Of a stretch of DNA of 27,749 nucleotides, positions 7,568 to 27,749 are shown piece after piece. Every line of letters starts with the position of its first letter. The stretch's first letter is position 1. The DNA is from Candidatus Micrarchaeia archaeon. Lineage in GTDB: Archaea; Micrarchaeota; Micrarchaeia; Micrarchaeales; CABMGC01. The position numbers and the translations under genes were made by a program. The stretch is from NCBI GenBank assembly GCA_049965975.1, contig JBMFVN010000001.1, positions 1 to 27,749 of the forward strand. The letters are read 5' to 3'. The notes beneath the pieces were generated by a model. The model was not told the origin of the DNA, ran no database searches, and worked only from the letters and a program-made list of their open reading frames with translations.

Positions 7568-8656
7568 CTATTTCCTGAGCAGTAGATTCTTGAAAAAAGC
7601 AGTAGGGCTGTCCATGTCGCCATACTTGCTTAGAAGAGAGCCAAAACCCAGCTTGCCCAAAGCTCCGATGAGCAAAGACATGCTTCGCGGGCTTAATGAA
7701 GAGTATATGCTGTGGATAAGCTTGTGAATCAGCATGTCTGCGCCGAACCTTTTCTTGAAAGCCTTCTCATAAGCGCTCAGTGGCGCGCCTTTTGTTATGT
7801 GCTCGTAAATAGCCTTGGAAGCCATTAGAGCGGCATTGCCGCCGAAGATTATGCCACCACCTGTACTAGCCTTCACCTGACCTGCAGCATCGCCCACAAG
7901 CAAGACTTCCTTTTTTTCATCAACAAGCTTCTTCTTCGATTCTATCGGTATTATGCTTGCATACTCGCTAACGGGCCTTGCTTCGCCAAGAACCTGCTTT
8001 GCATACTTGGCCATAAACCTGTCAAAAGCCCTTTTGGCGTTGCCGTAGCTTGATTCTATTCCTATTCCTGCCTCTATTGCGTATTTTGAAACGGGGCAAA
8101 GCCAAGAGAAAAACCCCGGCGAAACTGAATTATCGAAAAACAAGTCTACAAAGGAATCTTTAGGGCTTACCTCGAACTCTGCTTTGTAAGTCAGCACGTA
8201 GCGCTTCACAAAGCCCATGCCAAAATGCCTTGCAACAAGTGAAAGCGCTCCGTCGGCTCCGACTATTATGCTTCTTTTTGACATTTCGCCGAGCTCATAA
8301 GCAGGCACCTGCCTGCCAAGCTCTACATTAGCGCCGTTTTGCTCGGCCAAATCAAGGCATATGCCATTTAAAATTGGTCTGTCAAGAACATATGCCTTGG
8401 GCTCTTTTGAATATACGCTAAGCAATACGCTTCCTGCATGCAGTCTTGCTCCGTAAAGCGTGTTCCTTATGGCATTCTTGTATGGTATTCCAAGGCTGTT
8501 AAGTCCTTTTATAGAGAGTATGCCACTTGCTACAGGAGGATACCCTGGCCTTTTCTTCTTGTCGTAAACGCTTACGCTTATGCCTCGCTTTGCCAAGTTT
8601 GCAGCCAAAAGCAGGCCTGCTGTGCCAGCGCCTATTATCGCTGTTTCGCTTTTCAT
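7568..8656 (-). CDS. Geranylgeranyl reductase family FAD-dependent oxidoreductase
   Basis: GAGTAG dinucleotide motif, VLDRPILN, VGADGA, LVGDAAGQVKASTGGGI. Start set at ATG 8656. Confidence 0.9.
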   Translation of the reverse strand: MKSETAIIGAGTAGLLLAANLAKRGISVSVYDKKKRPGYPPVASGILSIKGLNSLGIPYKNAIRNTLYGARLHAGSVLLSVYSKEPKAYVLDRPILNGICLDLAEQNGANVELGRQVPAYELGEMSKRSIIVGADGALSLVARHFGMGFVKRYVLTYKAEFEVSPKDSFVDLFFDNSVSPGFFSWLCPVSKYAIEAGIGIESSYGNAKRAFDRFMAKYAKQVLGEARPVSEYASIIPIESKKKLVDEKKEVLLVGDAAGQVKASTGGGIIFGGNAALMASKAIYEHITKGAPLSAYEKAFKKRFGADMLIHKLIHSIYSSLSPRSMSLLIGALGKLGFGSLLSKYGDMDSPTAFFKNLLLRK

Positions 8657-8686
8657 TTGCTCAATATTTATAAGGATGTATTGCAA

Positions 8687-8700
8687 AAGATAAATATCTT
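8687..8700. promoter_or_regulatory. Perfect inverted repeat AAGATA-AA-TATCTT in the GGR/aglB divergent gap
   Basis: Seen directly; its centre (TAAATA) is also TATA-like. Confidence 0.35.
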
Positions 8701-8722
8701 ATTTGACAAGATCTCTGATTAC

Positions 8723-11700
8723 ATGTCCTTAGCTGCAACAATCTTGCTCGCTTTTATTAGCATAATAGTGCCTGGCTTCGTGCTTGCTTACGCTCTTCTT
8801 GGCAAGACAAAGCTGCACCTGTTTGAAATAGTCGTAATTGGCTTCATATTCGGCTTAATATTTCCTCCTACGCTGACTTGGTTCGAAGCCTATTTCATGG
8901 ATTACATACACGCATTCACTTTCTCTGCAGGGCTTTTTGAGGCAAACGTAGTGGTCTTGACTATAGTTGGCCTGTTAGCCTGCTGGTACGAAGGCTTATT
9001 GAATATAAAAATACCAAGGGCAAAAAGCATAGCTGCGATTTCGAAGGAGGAGCACCTTGAAACGATAAAAGAGGTAAGGGCAAGAATACAGGAGCTTGGG
9101 CTGGACATGAAGCTGATAAGGCAGCACGAACAGGAAGAAAACGAGCTCGCTGAAAGACATAGGCAGGAAATGGAAAGGCTTGCTACTGCAGGGCCTGAGG
9201 AAAGGGCAAAGATAAAAGAGCTGCACGAAAAAGAAGAGAGGGAGCTTCTTGAAGAGCACGAAAGGGAGGAGAGGCTGCTCTTGCAGGCGCCAAAAGAAGA
9301 AAAAAGCAAGGGCAAGAGCGAATGGATTATGTGGACCTTCGTGACGCTGCTCATGCTGCTTACCTTCTCGACGCGCATACTCAACATAGGCACTGCGCCA
9401 AGATACTTTGAATTTGATCCATATTTTGACATGCTGAGCACTGAATCTATACTAGTGCACGGCTATCAGTACCTTTACGACTATTCTGCGTGGCCCACGC
9501 TTGTGAACGGCTCGCCACATAGGATGGAGCCGCTAATTCCATATCTTGAAGCCTTTTGGTACGATATTGCAAATCCGCCAAAGAATGCAATAAGCACCGC
9601 ATTGCTTAGCGATGTAAGCAGCTTCTACCCACCAATAGCAGCAGCATTGCTTGTGTTCGCAGTGTTCATGTTCCTTTACCACGAATATGGAAAAATCCCC
9701 GCACTATTTGGCGCATCGCTTACTGCATCGATGGCCGTGTTAGTGACTACTTTCATAGCCGGAGAGCAGCTGCTTGAGCCGTGGGGCATTTTCTCAATGT
9801 TCTTCTTCTATGCTGCTTATCTGCTTGCAATAAACAACAAAGAAGAATGGCGCTATGCTGTTCTTGCAGGCATAGCATTTGTAGCTACATTCCTCGGTGC
9901 GCACTACTATACGGTAAATGCAGGAGTGCTTGCGCTTTACATACTCTTCCAAGGAGTGCTTGATGTATTGAGAAAGAAAAACATGCACAGCTTTTACAAG
10001 ATGAATGCAATTGTGATAGCTATAATCGCATTTGGCTATGGCATATTCGATCCATACAAGTCATCGCTATACCACAGGATACCAAGCGTCGCCGGAATAC
10101 CTGTAATAGTTTCTTTTCCATTGCTCGCGCTTTTGATAGTTGCACTTTTCGAATATGTGCCGAAAGAGCTTCACAAGAGGCACATGATAGCAGCGCTAGA
10201 CTCGGCGGTATATTACACTTGGCTTGCAATACTGATTATCTTAGCGTTGCTGCTTGTGTTTCTAACGCCTCTTGGTAGGCCTGTAAAGAGCTACATAAAA
10301 CTCAGCCTACACTTTACAACTCCTTCAATTCCTCTTTTCATGACTGTTCAGGAATTCGAGCCGACGGGCTTTGGCTTTAACTTTGCATCTGCGGGCTTTG
10401 GCTGGATAGGCTTAAACCCGATAGTGTGGATAGTGCTTATAGTTTTCGTTCTGCTCTCGCTATTTGCGATTTTCAAGAGGAATTCAGATTCGGGCATGCT
10501 TTCAATATGGATTGTGCTTCCTTTAGCTTTCGCCGCTATGGTGGAAGTCAAGTACTTGCCTCACTTTGGAGTTGCATACATACTTGCATTGAGCATAATA
10601 CTTGGTGAACTGCTACTCATGTTTAGAGGCAAGATAAATACTCAGCTGAAATACCTGGGCATTGCGATACTTACTTTAATAGTGCTTTCTGAGGCAGTGC
10701 CAACATTTGCAGGAGTGCTTTCTGGCTATGCAAACCAGAATAATTGCAGCGTAATTGCAAAGCAGGGCAATTCAATAGGCTATGACATGTTCTGCAATAC
10801 GGTGCCGAGCTATTGGCTTAACGCCACAGCATGGATGCGCAGCAACGTTGGGCCGTATGGTCCTAGGATTCTCTCCTGGTGGGATTACGGCGACTGGATA
10901 AACTGGTTCGGAAACAGCAACGCGGTGCTAAGAGGGGACAACGCTGTGCCAACACTCGACTATGAGACTGCAGCAAGATATGTGCTTGGGCCTCAGGATG
11001 GCTATGGACCGGCCAGCCTTGCCAGCTTTGCAAACTCTGTTCAGGCAAAGTATGTTTTATTTGATAATGCGCTTACCCAGAAGTGGGGCGCTCTTGACTT
11101 TCTTGCTTGTATAGACATAAACGAAACAAACATGACTTTTGCAAAGAATGCTGCAAACGGCACAGGACAGCCGTATGTGCTTGGCACGTCGCAGTGCGAG
11201 CTTAAGCATGACCCTGCAGTTTTGCTAATTCCGGAAAACCTTGGGAGCATTAGCAGTTATTGCGCGCCCATAAAGAGCCTTAAGAATGAGACCTTGCTAA
11301 AGGGCATAGTCATTGCAGGAGACATGCTAACAAACATAACATACTGTGTGCCTTTGAATTCTACAACTCCAGTAGAAAGGCTTTATTATCCAAATGGAAC
11401 ACAGAGCAATGCACTGTTTGTCTTCAATTCACAGTTCTACGAAGGCACGCTGAATGTTTCTGGAGTACCAATGAGCGCATTCATGCTTCTTTATCTGCCG
11501 AATAAGAATGGCACAATAACCGCACCAACAGAATTCTACCAGTCAAGCTACTATCGCGGCTTCTACCTAGGTAGCCTTCCTGGGTTTAAGCTAGTTTATC
11601 CAAGCAACTTTACTGGCATAAACTACGTAAATGGCACGCACCCGATAATGATCTACGCGCTTGACAACTTTACAGGGACATTGCCCAAGGTTACTCCTAA

Positions 11701-11740
11701 GCCTGCATGGGTCCACAACAATTACACTATGCCTGGCTGA
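8723..11740 (+). CDS. aglB: Oligosaccharyltransferase AglB (STT3 family) with N-terminal extension
   Basis: EFDPY, TVQE and WWDYG motifs; many TM helices; large C-terminal soluble domain. True start ATG 8723; the longer ORF start overlaps GGR. Confidence 0.93.
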   Translation: MSLAATILLAFISIIVPGFVLAYALLGKTKLHLFEIVVIGFIFGLIFPPTLTWFEAYFMDYIHAFTFSAGLFEANVVVLTIVGLLACWYEGLLNIKIPRAKSIAAISKEEHLETIKEVRARIQELGLDMKLIRQHEQEENELAERHRQEMERLATAGPEERAKIKELHEKEERELLEEHEREERLLLQAPKEEKSKGKSEWIMWTFVTLLMLLTFSTRILNIGTAPRYFEFDPYFDMLSTESILVHGYQYLYDYSAWPTLVNGSPHRMEPLIPYLEAFWYDIANPPKNAISTALLSDVSSFYPPIAAALLVFAVFMFLYHEYGKIPALFGASLTASMAVLVTTFIAGEQLLEPWGIFSMFFFYAAYLLAINNKEEWRYAVLAGIAFVATFLGAHYYTVNAGVLALYILFQGVLDVLRKKNMHSFYKMNAIVIAIIAFGYGIFDPYKSSLYHRIPSVAGIPVIVSFPLLALLIVALFEYVPKELHKRHMIAALDSAVYYTWLAILIILALLLVFLTPLGRPVKSYIKLSLHFTTPSIPLFMTVQEFEPTGFGFNFASAGFGWIGLNPIVWIVLIVFVLLSLFAIFKRNSDSGMLSIWIVLPLAFAAMVEVKYLPHFGVAYILALSIILGELLLMFRGKINTQLKYLGIAILTLIVLSEAVPTFAGVLSGYANQNNCSVIAKQGNSIGYDMFCNTVPSYWLNATAWMRSNVGPYGPRILSWWDYGDWINWFGNSNAVLRGDNAVPTLDYETAARYVLGPQDGYGPASLASFANSVQAKYVLFDNALTQKWGALDFLACIDINETNMTFAKNAANGTGQPYVLGTSQCELKHDPAVLLIPENLGSISSYCAPIKSLKNETLLKGIVIAGDMLTNITYCVPLNSTTPVERLYYPNGTQSNALFVFNSQFYEGTLNVSGVPMSAFMLLYLPNKNGTITAPTEFYQSSYYRGFYLGSLPGFKLVYPSNFTGINYVNGTHPIMIYALDNFTGTLPKVTPKPAWVHNNYTMPG

Positions 11741-13199: not shown

Positions 13200-15194
13200 C
13201 TATTGCTTGTTTTCAGCATTAAAATTCATACGTCTTTCTTTGAACAGCCAGAAAGCAAATAAAATCAGCGCAAGAGGAATTACTATTATTACGAGCAAGC
13301 TCTGCGGGGATAAAAGTACTAAATGCACAGGCACGCCATTTTTTGCGACAAAAGATTCTGAAAACAGTGAGAAGGCGCTTCCTGAAGCATAGCCGTATGG
13401 TACATCAGCTAAATAGAGAACTCCGGAAGGCCCTGAAAAGAAGTTGGCCCTTGTGCCGTTTGCGAAGGAAAGGCTTATGCTAGCATTAACAGGCATGCCA
13501 AACAAATCTTTGGTATAGATTTCCAAAGGATAGACCGGCAAGCTGATTTCTACAAGCCTAGGGCCTGAAACTGCAAACGAGTAGGTGATATTGATCTGAG
13601 TGCCCTTGTAGAACGCCTTTGTAACAGAGTACGATCCTGCCTGCAGATATGGGGTATTGTTAACAGACTTGCCGCTTACTACGTAATTCTCTACACTTAT
13701 GTTTTTTCCGCTTGCATCTTTTGCCAACAAGCTAACGCGGTATTCCTTTGCAAAATAAGCCTGCAGCGAAATCGGCTTTTCCACCAGCATTTCAAATGAA
13801 CTTTTTGTGCTGCCGTTGCTCCACGCCACGAATGCAATGCGCTCACCGGCAGATACGCTAATATAAGGTTCTACAACGTTCACCGTGTCATTGCTGCCTT
13901 GGGCGAGCCAGCCGCTGCCAGTAACATTACCATACTGTGAAGTTATGTTGACAAAGAATTCCTTTTCATAAACGGCAGAGACATACAAAGGCTGAGTCGC
14001 TACAAAAATGCCGCTTGGCTTTGTGTTTCCATTGGTCCAGTGCTCAAACACAAACCTGGTGCTGTTGCCAGAATAAACCGCATTGTTCAATATTCCGTAT
14101 TTTACTATACTGCCATTTGAATACCAGCCTGTACCATATGTCTGAAAGCCAGCAGGAGTAGAAGTTACATTAACAAAGTATTGGATTGTATAAACTGCGG
14201 ATTCTGTTATGTTACTATACATGTTTACAACTGTGCTGTTCAGCGGACCTGTATAAGATCCGATTCCCTTACCTATCCAATAGGAGAATACGGCGCGCTC
14301 GCCGTTTGCAATATAAATCTTTTCTGGCACAGAAATTGGCACTTGAGCATATGCTGCATATTCGGCACTGCTGTTAAGGGATTTGAAAGGAGTGGATATG
14401 CGAAGCCAATAGCCCAGATGCCAAAGCTGCGTGCCGTTAGTGCTAGTAGGCAGGCCACTGCCTACTTCAAAGTAGTTCACCCTGCTGTCCACTTCCTCAA
14501 CGCCATAAGGATTAGCAACATTTGTCTTGCTGCCCGACCCATATGAGATTATGCCATAGCCGTTCTCTACTGGATAAAAGCCGTTGTACTTGTATGCTGA
14601 AAGATTTTCAAACAGCACAGGCCTCATATAGCTTGTAATCCCGCTGCTGTTGGCAAGCTCTGCGATTGCCACTGGCGGATTTGGACCTGATGAATCTGTG
14701 CCAAGATTTACAGAGCCAACCTGCTTGCCGTTAAACAAAAAGTACCATGTATCGCCTAAGGAATAGAAAGAGTAAGTGTTAAAAGTGCCATTACTGCCTG
14801 CTGAGTCATTCGGCCCGATGGCGCCCATAAACGTTGAATTTTCCCCAGGAAGGAAATATTCGTAAAACCATGTGGGCGAGCCAGCAGCAAGATAAACTCT
14901 GCCTGTGCAGCCGCTAGCAGTACAATTTGTAGGGTAATTGCCGCTCTCATTTTCAACGGTATAGCCAATTTGTATGAAGGCGCCATTTTGCAGGTTCTCG
15001 CCAACCCAAAATGCGAATGAGCCGCTTGTCGGCATTTGAGGCTCGATAGTTTCTATGCTTACAGATGCCCCGTTGTTTTGCGAAGCAGAATTGCCAGCCC
15101 TTACGCCAGATTGAAACCAATATTCTGCATTGCTTGAAGCAAAAATTATTGTCAAGGCAAGCGCGCAAAGCAAAGCTCTGCTATATCCGCTCAT
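13200..15194 (-). CDS. Secreted, C-terminally membrane-anchored glycoprotein: G1 glutamic-peptidase-like domain plus beta-sandwich repeats
   Basis: Signal peptide (~1-23), FWVG...IQIG...WFYEY...AIAE, repeated GxGWYxxG/VFxxW modules, C-terminal TM with basic tail, many N-x-S/T sequons. Confidence 0.7.
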   Translation of the reverse strand: MSGYSRALLCALALTIIFASSNAEYWFQSGVRAGNSASQNNGASVSIETIEPQMPTSGSFAFWVGENLQNGAFIQIGYTVENESGNYPTNCTASGCTGRVYLAAGSPTWFYEYFLPGENSTFMGAIGPNDSAGSNGTFNTYSFYSLGDTWYFLFNGKQVGSVNLGTDSSGPNPPVAIAELANSSGITSYMRPVLFENLSAYKYNGFYPVENGYGIISYGSGSKTNVANPYGVEEVDSRVNYFEVGSGLPTSTNGTQLWHLGYWLRISTPFKSLNSSAEYAAYAQVPISVPEKIYIANGERAVFSYWIGKGIGSYTGPLNSTVVNMYSNITESAVYTIQYFVNVTSTPAGFQTYGTGWYSNGSIVKYGILNNAVYSGNSTRFVFEHWTNGNTKPSGIFVATQPLYVSAVYEKEFFVNITSQYGNVTGSGWLAQGSNDTVNVVEPYISVSAGERIAFVAWSNGSTKSSFEMLVEKPISLQAYFAKEYRVSLLAKDASGKNISVENYVVSGKSVNNTPYLQAGSYSVTKAFYKGTQINITYSFAVSGPRLVEISLPVYPLEIYTKDLFGMPVNASISLSFANGTRANFFSGPSGVLYLADVPYGYASGSAFSLFSESFVAKNGVPVHLVLLSPQSLLVIIVIPLALILFAFWLFKERRMNFNAENKQ

Positions 15195-16060: not shown

Positions 16061-17506
16061 TCATTTGCAGGCATAATTCTTTGGAAAATCTACCGAAAAG
16101 CCGGCAAAGTTTAGCCGAACTGAAACATTAGAAAAATTAATTGAAGACTTGTTAACTCCTAAGCTGTTGAACGCTATTATTGGATAGCGCTGTATTGTTG
16201 AGTTGTAGTAAAAAGGCGAATGCGCCCTTATGCCGATATAACGCAAGTATACCCAATCGTTTGATACGAAATTGCAGTTTTCCAAGCCGAGCGTAGCAAG
16301 CGCCGACTTTACGCTTGCATATATCGGATCCCTGTAGCCATATGATGAAAATACTGCAACATTAGACAGGTAAGCAGAGAAAATGGAACCTAAAGAAAAT
16401 ATAAAAAGAACAGCAAGAACAAGTGGAAGCAGTCTTGCCCTAAACCTTGCTACTTTGACCGAAATTCCTTGGGAAAACTCGCTTATAAGCAGGCCAAGCA
16501 GCAAGGCAAAGCCAGGATATATCAAATAAACCAACCGAGGAAGGTTGTCTACCGAACCGTTAGGCAAGGTTAAAAGCCAGCCAAAAAGACCCAGTGCAAG
16601 GAAAGCAGAAGTCTTCTTAAATATACTATTCCCAAAAGTTTGCTCGCTTTTTTTGCTTGTTGTTTGAATTGACAAGCTCTTGCGTGCAAGTCTCAATATT
16701 AACAGGCAAGCCAAAACTGCAATAGCTAAACCAAAAGTTTCGAACAAAAGCCTTAGAGATACCACAGCCCCTGCAAGAGCGCTGCCGGAATGCGAAAAAA
16801 TACCCAAAGAATATAGGTAGCTAAATGCAGGATTGCCAAAAGCAAAGAAGTTGAACACAAGCCATGGAAAAAGCGTGATTAAAAACACAGCAAAAGCCTT
16901 CTTTCTGCCATGTGGAAGCAGCAATAGAAGAGGCACAAAAACAAGCGAAGGATATTTTGCAAGGCTGGAAAGCGCAAACAGAAATCCAGACTGCCATTTA
17001 TTATCAAGCAGCAAGCCAAAACCGAATAGCGCAAGCGTCATGGAAACCAGCTCAGTGCCGTTCAGAAGAACGAAATACAGAAAAGCGAAGGGTGTGAAGA
17101 AAAGGAGCGAAAGCAGAAAGAAATTGAGCTTTATTTTCTTTGACACAAACCAGACTGAAAAGAAATTCAGCAGCAGGATAAAAGCCAAATAGAGCTGAAT
17201 GAAATTATTATTCGAAAGCACAAAAGGAATAAGGAGCAGGCCTACTAATGGGGCTCTTTCTGGTTCGAAATAAAACGCGTTTGCATTATTAATAGCAGCA
17301 AACAAATCTCCATGCAAAAGAGAAGAATAGAAAAGAGGGCTCAGCAAGGACTTCGCATAGAACACATGAGCGATAAAATCCCAGTATATGCCGCTTGCGT
17401 TGAACACGGCAAAAACTGCCAGAGAAGCAAATACAAATAGCAAAGCAGACAGCAAAATAGTCAACCAAGCAACTTGTCCAAGCTTATGTCCGAGCATACT
17501 GGTCAT
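16061..17506 (-). CDS. Polytopic membrane GT-C-type glycosyltransferase (PMT/ArnT-like)
   Basis: About 11-13 TM segments; luminal loop YWDFIAH; EPERAPL; LAKYP; LPRLVY; C-terminal soluble tail. Confidence 0.7.
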   Translation of the reverse strand: MTSMLGHKLGQVAWLTILLSALLFVFASLAVFAVFNASGIYWDFIAHVFYAKSLLSPLFYSSLLHGDLFAAINNANAFYFEPERAPLVGLLLIPFVLSNNNFIQLYLAFILLLNFFSVWFVSKKIKLNFFLLSLLFFTPFAFLYFVLLNGTELVSMTLALFGFGLLLDNKWQSGFLFALSSLAKYPSLVFVPLLLLLPHGRKKAFAVFLITLFPWLVFNFFAFGNPAFSYLYSLGIFSHSGSALAGAVVSLRLLFETFGLAIAVLACLLILRLARKSLSIQTTSKKSEQTFGNSIFKKTSAFLALGLFGWLLTLPNGSVDNLPRLVYLIYPGFALLLGLLISEFSQGISVKVARFRARLLPLVLAVLFIFSLGSIFSAYLSNVAVFSSYGYRDPIYASVKSALATLGLENCNFVSNDWVYLRYIGIRAHSPFYYNSTIQRYPIIAFNSLGVNKSSINFSNVSVRLNFAGFSVDFPKNYACK

Positions 17507-19357: not shown

Positions 19358-22057
19358 TTATCTGCTTTTGTTTTTAGTAGTTGTGGCTATGTTTATGCGC
19401 GTCTTCTGTTTCTCAAAGTCAAGTATCTCTTTGGGCAGATCGGTATAGCGGTTGAGCTGCTTCAAACCTATCAGCTTTATCTCGGCCTTAAGAAGCTCTG
19501 GCTTGCCTGATGTGCCGTCGTTTGCGTAGGCAAGGTCAAGGTACGTAAAACCACGAGTGCCTTGGCTTGTTGGTATGCCAACCTGCATTGGAAAGCCAGT
19601 AAGCATTGACGAGGTGGTGCCAGTAGCAGAGATTACAGTTTGACCCCAAGGAGTAGTTATGAAATCTATAGAGTGCTCATGCCTGTCTGCGCCCAGCGCC
19701 AAAATATGATCAGCGTCAAGGTTTAATCTCCTTGTTTGCAGCCTGTGGGCCACATAAATGCTTGTATTGTCTGACAATTTAACGTCACCGGAGCCCATGT
19801 CTCCGCCAGAGATCGGAATTATTTGAGCCCTTACCCTGCCCTTCAAAGTCTGCGCTATTGACATGGCTTCGTCGTTAGTTTTGTTTCGATAAGATTTGTT
19901 GTAATGCTGGCCTGAAACAACCACTATCGCCTGAGCCTTCGCCGCTTTTATCACTGGTAGCAGATGCTGGATAAGCACTTCCCTCTGCTCATCAGTATTG
20001 CCTATAGGCTGCTTGTAAAGCAAATAAGATTCGTATTCTTCAACAAGCTCCTGCCTTCTGTTTCTGTCGATTTTTGTTTTCGCCAGGTATTCTTCAAACT
20101 CCTTGACATTTGAAATAGAACTCTCTTTGTTAAGCTCGTTCTTTATGCCAAGATAATCGCCTTCTATGTTGTCCCCTCCTAAGAACAAAATGTTTGCCAC
20201 CAGGCCGTTGTCCTTTAAGTACTTTTCCAAAGCGTCTGTAAGCCGAACGGTTGGCAAGCCGTAGCCTGAAGTGCCTATGTGCGCATCGTTGTACATCAGA
20301 ATGGGCAGCTGCTTTATCTGCGCAGGCTGCGAATACGATGCCAGATAAGGAGCTAGCGAATCCGGCATTCGCTCTTTAGCTTCCCTTAGCAAGCGCAAAT
20401 TCATCTCGCTTGGAAGCTTGTTCTCAATCTGAGCTATTGACTCTTCGGAAAGCTCTGAATTTGAAATACGCTTCAACTGATCGCTCCTCTTCAGCTCTTT
20501 AAGCCTGCTTTCAAGAGGCTCCTTTTCGTCATCAAAGGCTTCCTTTGCCTTAAGCTTAAGGTAAGCCGAGCTGTAAAAATAAAAAGAAACACCGCCATCT
20601 TTGCTTATTCTAGCCTCGATAAAGCCGGATGTCACTCCTTTGTTCTTGCCAACGACCTCTGTAAGCGGGGTCTTTATGCCTTCGTTCCATGCCTCCTGGA
20701 CTTTCTGAAAATCTACTATCGGAGGAACAGAAACCTCATAGACAAGCTTGCCTTCTGAATCATGACTATTGAATAAAGGCTTTGCTTTTACGCTTCCTAC
20801 AACCACGTGCGACATGGCAACTATTTCGGCATTGCTGCCTGCGAAATGCGCCTCTGTCTCAAGCCTAGCATCAGGACTGGCAGGATAAGACTCAGACGTG
20901 TTAGACCCTCTGGCAGAAAGCCTGACACCTATTTCTTTCAGGCTTACGTCGTTTACATTCTCACTAAGAATGTCAAGGTTGACGCGCCTGCCGAATGTGT
21001 TCCTTATGTAGGTTTTGACTATTGAATCTGCAAGAAGCCACGAGAGGTCATCGAGCCTTTTCGAGCCAGGGAGATTGTGCGTATAGAGTTCTCCTGCCTC
21101 GGCATGCTCGTGCACTGCCCGCATCGCTTGCTCCTGCTGCTTACTTATCTCTTTTGCTGAAATCCTTTTCAGCATGTCGGCAAGCTCCTTTGAATAAGAG
21201 TCAAGTTCTTCGTATCTTTTTGGCTCTTTAGACTTGTCAACAGAAATTAGCTCTTTGGAAACCTCATCGTATTTCTTCTGCACCTCCTCAACGGAAACGG
21301 TGTCTGTTACAAAATTCGAAATAAGCTCGTCTAGCAGCGGACTTTTGCCCGGGTTCAGCTTTGAACGTATCTTGGCAAGGTCATCGATAGAGTTAAAGTG
21401 CTCCTCGAGCCACAGGCTAAAGAGCTGCCTGAGAAGCTCGTAAGTATGGGCGTAATCGGCCCTTTCCTCTTCAAGCTGCCTTACCTTTTCTCTCAAATTG
21501 TATATTTTCTCCTCATGGCTTTTGCCGTCTTTGCCGTTTGAAAGCTCCTTGTTCAGCAAACCCTTGCTCTTTTCTATTATTGTCGCATCTGCATCTACTT
21601 TCTTTGAATAAGCCAAAAGATCCCTGCCTATCTGGGCCGGGTTGAAGTTGTATTCTTTCACGAACAAGTCGTGGTAGCTGCTTTCGTTGTAAATATCGCT
21701 GTAGCCCATTACGTATACTACTTTAGTATCAAGCTTGTTCTTTGCAAGAAGCTCTGTAAGTCTGACAAGGTGCGGCTTCATAGCAACAGTGGCAAGATCA
21801 AGAGTTCTTATGGCAAGGGGCTTTGTCTTGCTGTAGCCCCCTCTGGTTATGTACTCTGGCATTTTAGGGAGAAGCTCGCCGTTAAAAGCAAGCAAAGAAG
21901 GAACGCCTTCTCCTTTTAAAACTCTGTCCTTTAGCTCTTTGTAAACCCCAATTATGTTTTCCTTGCTGAACCAAACAAGGCCGCCACCAAGTTCGCCAAT
22001 AAGCCATAGGCTTGTTCCGGCATTCTGCCAGTCCCCACCTTTGTTGGCATTAGCCAA
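19358..22057 (-). CDS. Large hypothetical protein: tandem calcineurin-like metallophosphoesterase domains with coiled-coil insertions
   Basis: C-terminal motifs NDAHIG, GGDNIEG, SGQHY, VAH, DRHEH; degenerate N-terminal set. TTG start at 22057 after strong RBS GGAGGGG. Confidence 0.75.
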   Translation of the reverse strand: MANANKGGDWQNAGTSLWLIGELGGGLVWFSKENIIGVYKELKDRVLKGEGVPSLLAFNGELLPKMPEYITRGGYSKTKPLAIRTLDLATVAMKPHLVRLTELLAKNKLDTKVVYVMGYSDIYNESSYHDLFVKEYNFNPAQIGRDLLAYSKKVDADATIIEKSKGLLNKELSNGKDGKSHEEKIYNLREKVRQLEEERADYAHTYELLRQLFSLWLEEHFNSIDDLAKIRSKLNPGKSPLLDELISNFVTDTVSVEEVQKKYDEVSKELISVDKSKEPKRYEELDSYSKELADMLKRISAKEISKQQEQAMRAVHEHAEAGELYTHNLPGSKRLDDLSWLLADSIVKTYIRNTFGRRVNLDILSENVNDVSLKEIGVRLSARGSNTSESYPASPDARLETEAHFAGSNAEIVAMSHVVVGSVKAKPLFNSHDSEGKLVYEVSVPPIVDFQKVQEAWNEGIKTPLTEVVGKNKGVTSGFIEARISKDGGVSFYFYSSAYLKLKAKEAFDDEKEPLESRLKELKRSDQLKRISNSELSEESIAQIENKLPSEMNLRLLREAKERMPDSLAPYLASYSQPAQIKQLPILMYNDAHIGTSGYGLPTVRLTDALEKYLKDNGLVANILFLGGDNIEGDYLGIKNELNKESSISNVKEFEEYLAKTKIDRNRRQELVEEYESYLLYKQPIGNTDEQREVLIQHLLPVIKAAKAQAIVVVSGQHYNKSYRNKTNDEAMSIAQTLKGRVRAQIIPISGGDMGSGDVKLSDNTSIYVAHRLQTRRLNLDADHILALGADRHEHSIDFITTPWGQTVISATGTTSSMLTGFPMQVGIPTSQGTRGFTYLDLAYANDGTSGKPELLKAEIKLIGLKQLNRYTDLPKEILDFEKQKTRINIATTTKNKSR

Positions 22058-22175
22058 AAGGTCCCCCTCCCTAATGGAATAAATGAGCAAACAAATCATT
22101 TAAATAAGTTGCTCGGCATGTGCCGCAATACAAATAAAAGGGGTAATACTTTAGTAAAAATTTTTTTTGATTTTG

Positions 22176-27666: not shown

Positions 27667-27674
27667 TTTTTAAA
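27667..27674 (-). promoter_or_regulatory. Putative TATA box of the CBS gene
   Basis: TTTAAAAA on the minus strand, ~33 nt before ATG 27634. Confidence 0.45.
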
Positions 27675-27695
27675 TGGCTTGCAGCCATTCGGGTA

Positions 27696-27749
27696 GTGAC
27701 ATCCACCCACCCATAAATGGTGTGGGCTTCCTTCACATTCATCAGCTCG
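27696..27749 (-). mobile_element. Right end of an IS200/IS605-family (TnpB/IS1341-type) element; remainder outside the window
   Basis: Minus strand GAAG-CCCACaCCATTTATGGGTGGG-TGGATG-TCAC: subterminal hairpin (27706-27726) then terminal TCAC (27696-27699), the characteristic right-end layout. Confidence 0.7.

What the first reader, a model, noticed from the sequence alone, without database searches (positions are those of the whole stretch)
27676..27749. IS200/IS605 right end defining a putative TnpB omegaRNA 3' end and guide
Seen (minus strand): ...GAAG CCCACaCCA TTTA TGGGTGGG TGGATG TCAC, then TACCCGAATGGCTGCAAGCC. Established: IS200/IS605 right ends have a subterminal hairpin and terminal tetranucleotide, and TnpB omegaRNA spans the right end and uses the next ~16-20 nt as guide. 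Inference: a tnpB gene or a non-autonomous derivative lies just outside the window, and its guide would be 27695-27676, immediately upstream of the CBS gene TATA box. I saw no second copy of the guide in the window.
Basis: partly seen in the sequence, partly recalled or inferred. Interest (0 to 1): 0.7.

Follow-up and report, generated by a model that had tools for sequence, protein, structure and literature searches.

The report
Gene-less transposon remnant in Micrarchaeota
This is the right end of a ~160-base leftover of a common jumping gene (IS605 type) that has lost its TnpB nuclease gene and half of its guide-RNA scaffold, so it is an ordinary, probably inert, transposon scar and not a working RNA-guided system.

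Summary
The motif is real. Window 27749-27696 (minus strand) is the last 54 nt of an IS605/IS1341-type element: DNA guide GAAG, subterminal hairpin, terminal TCAC. The window is a whole contig of a Micrarchaeia MAG and breaks inside the element.

A second strain of the species (GCA_049967055.1; 33 differences in 4400 nt) extends 102 nt further and shows no tnpB there. A left-end hairpin is joined through a 3-4 nt microhomology to the last 93 nt of the omegaRNA region, giving a ~160-nt PATE.

Parent elements in related genomes carry tnpB (some also Y1 tnpA) and insert after TTAA. An empty allele of a sibling copy confirms TTAA|insert|TCAC with no duplication. Covariation across 33 parent omegaRNAs supports an ISDra2-like fold. 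The PATE lacks stem 1, the pseudoknot loop, stem 3 and the 5' strand of stem 2, so the nominal guide is probably not loaded.

No TTAA+guide target was found above chance, and no intact tnpA or tnpB in the MAG (83% complete). The genome holds about a dozen decayed end fragments. This is a new member of a known kind (PATE); the scan had not noted it on other DNA.

The parts
27696..27749 (-). Last 54 nt of a ~160-nt gene-less IS605/IS1341-derived element (PATE); the contig breaks inside it
   Evidence: Matches L068:103-156 with 2 substitutions. L068:1-102 supplies the left end and truncated omegaRNA segment. The window is the whole contig C1.
27730..27737 (-). 3' arm of a family-specific extra stem of the omegaRNA region; its 5' arm lies beyond the contig end
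   Evidence: Helix 6: 8 pairs, 6 with changes on both sides. The window allele has 2 substitutions here (27735, 27734) against L068.
27727..27730 (-). Right-end DNA guide tetranucleotide (GAAG), predicted to pair with the terminal TCAC during TnpA cleavage
   Evidence: Present just before the hairpin in the parent ends of alignment A1. The pairing scheme is from my own knowledge of IS608; guide/TEM pairing is described in PMC10055086.
27706..27726 (-). Subterminal hairpin: TnpA-binding site as ssDNA, and stem 4 of the parent omegaRNA
   Evidence: Fold; helix 7, 7 of 8 pairs with compensatory changes
27696..27699 (-). Terminal tetranucleotide TCAC (C_R/TEM), the element boundary
   Evidence: 32 of 33 parent ends finish in TCAC and their flanks are unrelated. 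The empty allele of a sibling copy fixes the boundary exactly.
27676..27695 (-). Host flank, i.e. the nominal guide. It is the upstream/BRE part of the CBS promoter and holds most of a 7-bp inverted repeat (27689-27673)
   Evidence: Identical in L068. The BRE/TATA core is shared with relatives lacking the element. Predicted mostly paired in the mini transcript.
27667..27674 (-). Archaeal TATA box of the CBS gene (host, not part of the element)
   Evidence: A similar AT-rich box lies at this position in L002-L005, L065, L069 and L070
27134..27634 (-). Stand-alone CBS-pair protein gene (166 aa), host gene downstream of the insertion
   Evidence: PF00571, E 4.6e-32; orthologues of 157-180 aa in Micrarchaeia

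Best explanation
A tnpB-carrying IS605/IS1341-type element of a Micrarchaeales family (about 1.35-1.4 kb, or about 1.8-2 kb with tnpA) or an already shortened copy inserted 3' of a TTAA site about 60 nt upstream of the CBS start, by Y1-TnpA peel-and-paste (inferred). An internal deletion of about 1.2 kb between short AGG/CAGG microhomologies removed tnpB and the 5' half of the omegaRNA (junction shown in L068; mechanism inferred). What remains is a ~160-nt PATE with both hairpins and both DNA guide tetranucleotides. It could in principle still be excised as ssDNA by a TnpA supplied in trans, but it cannot fold the TnpB-binding core, so it should not direct cleavage of its own empty site. With no tnpA or tnpB found in this MAG it is most likely stranded and decaying, like its sibling fragments.
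For: Conspecific contig L068 shows left end + linker + truncated omegaRNA + the same right end + the same flank. Its 1-64 part is 94-95% identical to left ends in G047/G046 and its 64-157 part is 97% identical to a tnpB 3' end in G047. Left ends of the family follow TTAA in 29 of 29 contexts (26 in register, 3 shifted by one). Complete elements with an IS200/IS605 transposase and TnpB above NCBIfam cut-offs share these ends. An empty allele at the aIF-2beta copy reads TTAA directly joined to the flank that follows TCAC in G000. Parent omegaRNA model: 93% of cells paired, 32 of 41 pairs with double-sided changes, 0 of 500 shuffles as high. The PATE covers only -93 to -1; stem 1 (-163 to -140), the pseudoknot loop (-153 to -150), stem 2 5' strand and stem 3 are gone. 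These are the helices TnpB binds in the ISDra2 structure (PMC10097598). No PF07282, PF01385 or PF01797 match in G000.
Against: The upstream part is seen only in a second strain, not in the window's own genome. L068 starts about 4 nt inside the left end, so the TTAA and left flank of this copy are not seen. No empty allele of this exact site was found. The exact deletion junction was not found in 401 other genomes, so there is no sign that this short form moved on its own. The MAG is 83% complete and repeats are often unassembled, so intact tnpA/tnpB may be missing from the bin.
Confidence: 0.85

Rival explanations
1. In the window's own strain the element is still full length (tnpB plus intact omegaRNA) and the deletion happened only in the L068 lineage. 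The 16-20 nt flank is then a real guide for cut-and-copy retention at TTAA+flank empty sites.
For: The contig breaks 54 nt into the element, about one assembly k-mer (contigs overlap by 55 nt), as expected for a repeated end. The window allele differs from L068 at 2 nt. The C14 contig end carries an intact stem 1.
Against: The two strains are 99.25% identical and share the insertion. No tnpB in G000 beyond a decayed C15 fragment. Conspecific empty alleles link C14 to C10, not to C1.
Confidence: 0.07
2. The PATE still yields a trans-acting guide RNA. A weak hairpin in the left-end linker (GGC at L068:55-57) stands in for stem 1 and the pseudoknot loop, and a TnpB from elsewhere is guided to the CBS promoter region.
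For: PATEs are reported to 'often encode omegaRNAs' acted on in trans (PMC10055086). GGGC is a natural loop variant in 12 of 33 parents.
Against: The linker is inherited unchanged from parental left ends. Stem 2 has no 5' partner in the right order. The predicted fold sequesters the guide seed. No TnpB in the MAG and no target above chance.
Confidence: 0.04
3. The remnant has been kept because it acts on the CBS gene, as an insulator/terminator-like hairpin or an upstream promoter.
For: It sits 21 nt upstream of the TATA box and is present in both strains seen.
Against: Absent at this position in congeners and other relatives. The BRE/TATA core is the host's own. Sibling copies lie in unrelated contexts and are decaying.
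Confidence: 0.03
4. The open frame from the window edge into the CBS gene is a TnpB-CBS fusion (scan note e1-5317981).
For: A 204-codon frame is open to the contig edge.
Against: In L068 that frame has stop codons just upstream of the part seen in the window and no TnpB sequence. Orthologues are 157-180 aa, with a 166-aa call in L068 (longer forms were not searched).
Confidence: 0.01

Closest known systems
PATEs (palindrome-associated transposable elements) of Haloquadratum walsbyi (PMC3119063) and PATE-like elements of Geobacillus stearothermophilus (PMC10055086)
   Same: No gene, no terminal inverted repeats, near-terminal palindromes related to IS605 ends, no target duplication, origin by core deletion. 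Terminal-only fusions of about 50 nt also occur here (C22, C4).
   Different: Host is Micrarchaeia. TAM TTAA and TEM TCAC. This derivative is seen at one site only and its omegaRNA is cut in half, whereas G. stearothermophilus PATEs are said to often encode omegaRNAs.
IS605/IS1341-group elements (IS608, ISDra2, ISGst1-5)
   Same: Left and right subterminal hairpins, DNA guide tetranucleotides, insertion 3' of a short AT-rich TAM, parents with Y1 tnpA and/or tnpB.
   Different: This copy encodes neither protein. Whether the parent family is named in ISfinder was not tested.
ISDra2 TnpB omegaRNA (PMC10097598)
   Same: Parent RNAs fit the same topology: stem 1 with a loop pairing to -5..-3, stems 2, 3 and terminal stem 4, guide from the flank.
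   Different: Parents carry an extra stem before stem 4 (scaffold about 163 nt against 116). The PATE keeps only the extra stem, stem 4 and one strand of stem 2.

Membership tests
IS200/IS605 right end | Subterminal hairpin, upstream DNA guide and terminal tetranucleotide | tested here: met
IS200/IS605 right end | Same end found 3' of tnpB in complete elements with Y1 tnpA | tested here: met
IS200/IS605 right end | Insertion after a fixed TAM with no target duplication (empty allele) | tested here: met
   Shown for the sibling copy at aIF-2beta and for family left ends; not seen for this exact site
PATE | Both ends present with no coding capacity | tested here: met
   L068:1-156; seen in a conspecific strain, not in G000 itself
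PATE | Mobilised as a unit (several copies of the same short form, or strain-specific insertion) | tested here: inconclusive
   Junction not found in 401 genomes; other short forms occur in G000 and relatives
PATE | Excision by TnpA in trans | not testable with these tools
   No PF01797 in G000 or its 5 congeners; present in 63 of 117 genomes of the family
TnpB omegaRNA locus (OMEGA) | tnpB gene overlapping or adjacent to the RNA | tested here: not met
TnpB omegaRNA locus (OMEGA) | Stem 1 and pseudoknot with positions -5 to -3 | tested here: not met
   Deleted in L068; conserved in parents (helices 1 and 2)
TnpB omegaRNA locus (OMEGA) | Terminal stem 4 followed by a flank-derived guide | tested here: met
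TnpB omegaRNA locus (OMEGA) | TAM+guide target (empty site or other) | tested here: inconclusive
   None in G000 or 247 other genomes of the order. Viral TTAA+12-nt seed hits were 4 against 14 for a reversed control. Conspecific empty alleles could not be sampled.
TnpB omegaRNA locus (OMEGA) | RNA expressed and bound by TnpB | not testable with these tools
   needs small-RNA-seq or RIP

The most novel reading that the evidence does not exclude
A gene-less IS605 remnant whose left-end linker replaces the lost stem 1/pseudoknot loop and yields a compact chimeric omegaRNA. Loaded by a TnpB in trans, it would guard this site or bind the promoter of a host CBS gene in a DPANN archaeon.
Probability: 0.04. 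Interest if true: 0.6.

Novelty: new member of a known kind. Interest (0 to 1): 0.15.

Why it matters
Little as a single locus: it is a typical decay product of IS605 elements. Two by-products are useful. First, a defined Micrarchaeales TnpB family with TAM TTAA (backed by an empty allele), TEM TCAC, RuvC-I and RuvC-III motifs in most full-length copies checked, and a covariation-supported omegaRNA with an extra stem, which could be tested as a compact nuclease. Second, a caution for the scan: a hairpin plus TCAC at a contig end is not evidence of a working guide RNA.

Tried and rejected
Rfam gave nothing meaningful (sR30, E 1.6). Two metagenome pattern scans and one genome scan for the exact end/flank found nothing, nor did a viral scan for the hairpin. 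A looser right-end pattern found 4 archaeal MAG contigs, two named Micrarchaeia. Exact look-ups of window proteins failed; the route through homologue P0001 worked. A handle search of L068's assembly was not possible.

A C14-to-C1 join, which would give an intact omegaRNA, was rejected because conspecific contigs join C14 to C10. A SOD-to-CBS join, as in G003/G005, was not supported: the conspecific SOD contig L163 ends in unrelated sequence with no overlap to L068, so the left flank is unknown.

The four viral seed matches extend to 12-14 nt, all read IPEW in one frame and are fewer than the control; the 18-nt guide had no viral match. My regular expression for the RuvC-II glutamate matched none of the parent TnpBs, so that residue was not checked. 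The sigma-70 promoter scan does not cover archaea.

Full report
Observation. The described motif is present on the minus strand: GAAG 27730-27727, hairpin 27726-27706, TCAC 27699-27696, flank 27695-27676, TATA box 27674-27667 and a 166-aa CBS gene at 27634-27134. The window is the whole contig C1 of a 620-kb, 83%-complete MAG. The named CBS homologues come from Candidatus Micrarchaeia/Micrarchaeaceae. Contigs of this assembly overlap by 55 nt and the element occupies the last 54 nt, which suggests a break at a repeated end (inference).

It is an IS605-family right end. The stretch from the hairpin to TCAC is identical to the ends of tnpB-bearing elements in related genomes (L048/L064 and L058). 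A 160-nt query matched in 71 of 118 genomes of the family. Complete elements run TTAA, left-end hairpin, a 410-450-codon tnpB frame, right end, over about 1.35-1.4 kb. Some also carry a Y1 transposase: L132 scores NF033573 at 134 bits (cut-off 55) and NF040570 at 286 bits (cut-off 100). All 29 left-end contexts follow TTAA, and 32 of 33 right ends finish in TCAC. The guide/cleavage pairs GAAG-TCAC and AAAT-TTAA fit the IS608 pairing scheme (my own knowledge; guide-TAM/TEM pairing is described in PMC10055086). A direct empty allele exists for a sibling copy. Three conspecific contigs read TTAA joined to the base before the aIF-2beta start codon, where G000 contig C14 has TCAC joined to that same flank. 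This confirms the TAM, the boundary and the lack of target duplication for the family.

What lies upstream. A second assembly of the species (GCA_049967055.1, L068; 33 mismatches over 4400 nt) has the same insertion and reaches 102 nt further. It begins about 4 nt inside a left end (hairpin within 1-48) and continues through a short linker that is also found after parental left ends. At about position 63 it switches to the last 93 nt of the parental omegaRNA region. The two parental sides share AGG or CAGG at the switch, consistent with microhomology-mediated loss of about 1.2 kb (inference). The element is therefore about 160 nt with no gene. The frame that is open from the window edge into CBS is closed by stops in L068, which contradicts the TnpB-CBS fusion noted elsewhere in the scan.

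Is the guide real? I aligned 33 parental 3' ends and tested a structure modelled on ISDra2 (PMC10097598). 93.2% of cells pair and 32 of 41 pairs show double-sided changes; 0 of 500 shuffles reach this, and slid controls give 35-45%. The sequences are related and the structure was drawn from them, so these numbers are supportive, not probabilities. Stem 1 covaries strongly. Its loop (GGAC or GGGC in 31 of 33) pairs with positions -5 to -3, though that pseudoknot is mostly conserved rather than covarying. In the closest parent, stem 1 spans -163 to -140, the loop -153 to -150, the 5' strand of stem 2 -135 to -131 and stem 3 -127 to -95; all are missing from the PATE. In the ISDra2 structure TnpB grips stem 1, the triple helix, stems 2 and 3a and the pseudoknot, so the remnant should not load (inference). 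Its predicted fold also buries most of the seed. No target was found. The best of 3039 TTAA sites in G000 matches 6 seed bases, there is no match in 247 other genomes of the order, and viral seed hits were 4 against 14 for a control. A natural TnpB target would be the empty allele in a sister chromosome or strain, which I could not sample.

Genome context. G000 has no Pfam hit for TnpB or Y1 TnpA. None of its five congeners has Y1 TnpA, though 63 of 117 family genomes do. It does hold many remnants: short left+right forms (C27/C43, C28, C7), terminal-only fusions (C22, C4), lone left ends (C20, C24, C25) and a decayed tnpB tail with mutated omegaRNA (C15). This matches the picture drawn for Haloquadratum PATEs, which arise by core deletion and can shrink to about 52 bp (PMC3119063). 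Relatives have the CBS promoter core without the element, so the insertion is lineage-specific and the promoter is the host's.

Verdict. It works like, and is, an IS605 right end. The locus is best filed as a PATE; mobility as a unit is unproven. It fails two defining features of a TnpB-omegaRNA locus (the tnpB gene; stem 1/pseudoknot). The main caveat is that the upstream part comes from a sister strain. New member of a known kind; interest 0.15.

Noticed in passing
G000 C14:15900-15940 (-); empty alleles L160-L162: A sibling element inserted at TTAA 1 nt before the start codon of aIF-2beta, separating it from its native upstream region; the element's GGAGG could serve as a ribosome-binding site. 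Strain-polymorphic.
   Followed up: partly
G000 C14:16003-16044 (+): An intact omegaRNA stem 1 with pseudoknot loop runs off the contig end, opposite in strand to the element above (nested or inverted piece). Its unassembled right end may be the repeat that broke C1.
   Followed up: partly
G000 C27:18-200 and C43:209-25: Two 94%-identical alleles of one short element at the same site: a strain bubble in the MAG.
   Followed up: partly
G000 C22:1811-1850; C4:8617-8653: Terminal-only left/right end fusions of about 40-50 nt, as expected from deletion between the two similar hairpins.
   Followed up: partly
G000 C19:1-55; C58 end; C14:4283-4322: Ends of a second IS605-type family (guide AAAG, terminal TTAC); C19 starts with exactly 55 nt of a right end.
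   Followed up: no
window 27673-27689: Perfect 7-bp inverted repeat with 3-nt spacer overlapping the BRE of the CBS promoter; chance or a regulator site.
   Followed up: no
L057 and L063 (G046, G049): Composite remnants in which a truncated right-end/omegaRNA piece is fused head-to-head to an inverted left end.
   Followed up: no
alignment A1; L132, L031, L034, L041, L098: Widespread Micrarchaeales TnpB family with TTAA TAM and an extra variable stem before the terminal hairpin of the omegaRNA; a candidate compact nuclease.
   Followed up: partly
window 8438-11740, 13200-15194, 16061-17506, 19358-22099: Four long ORFs (481-1100 aa) without a Pfam hit at E 0.001.
   Followed up: no
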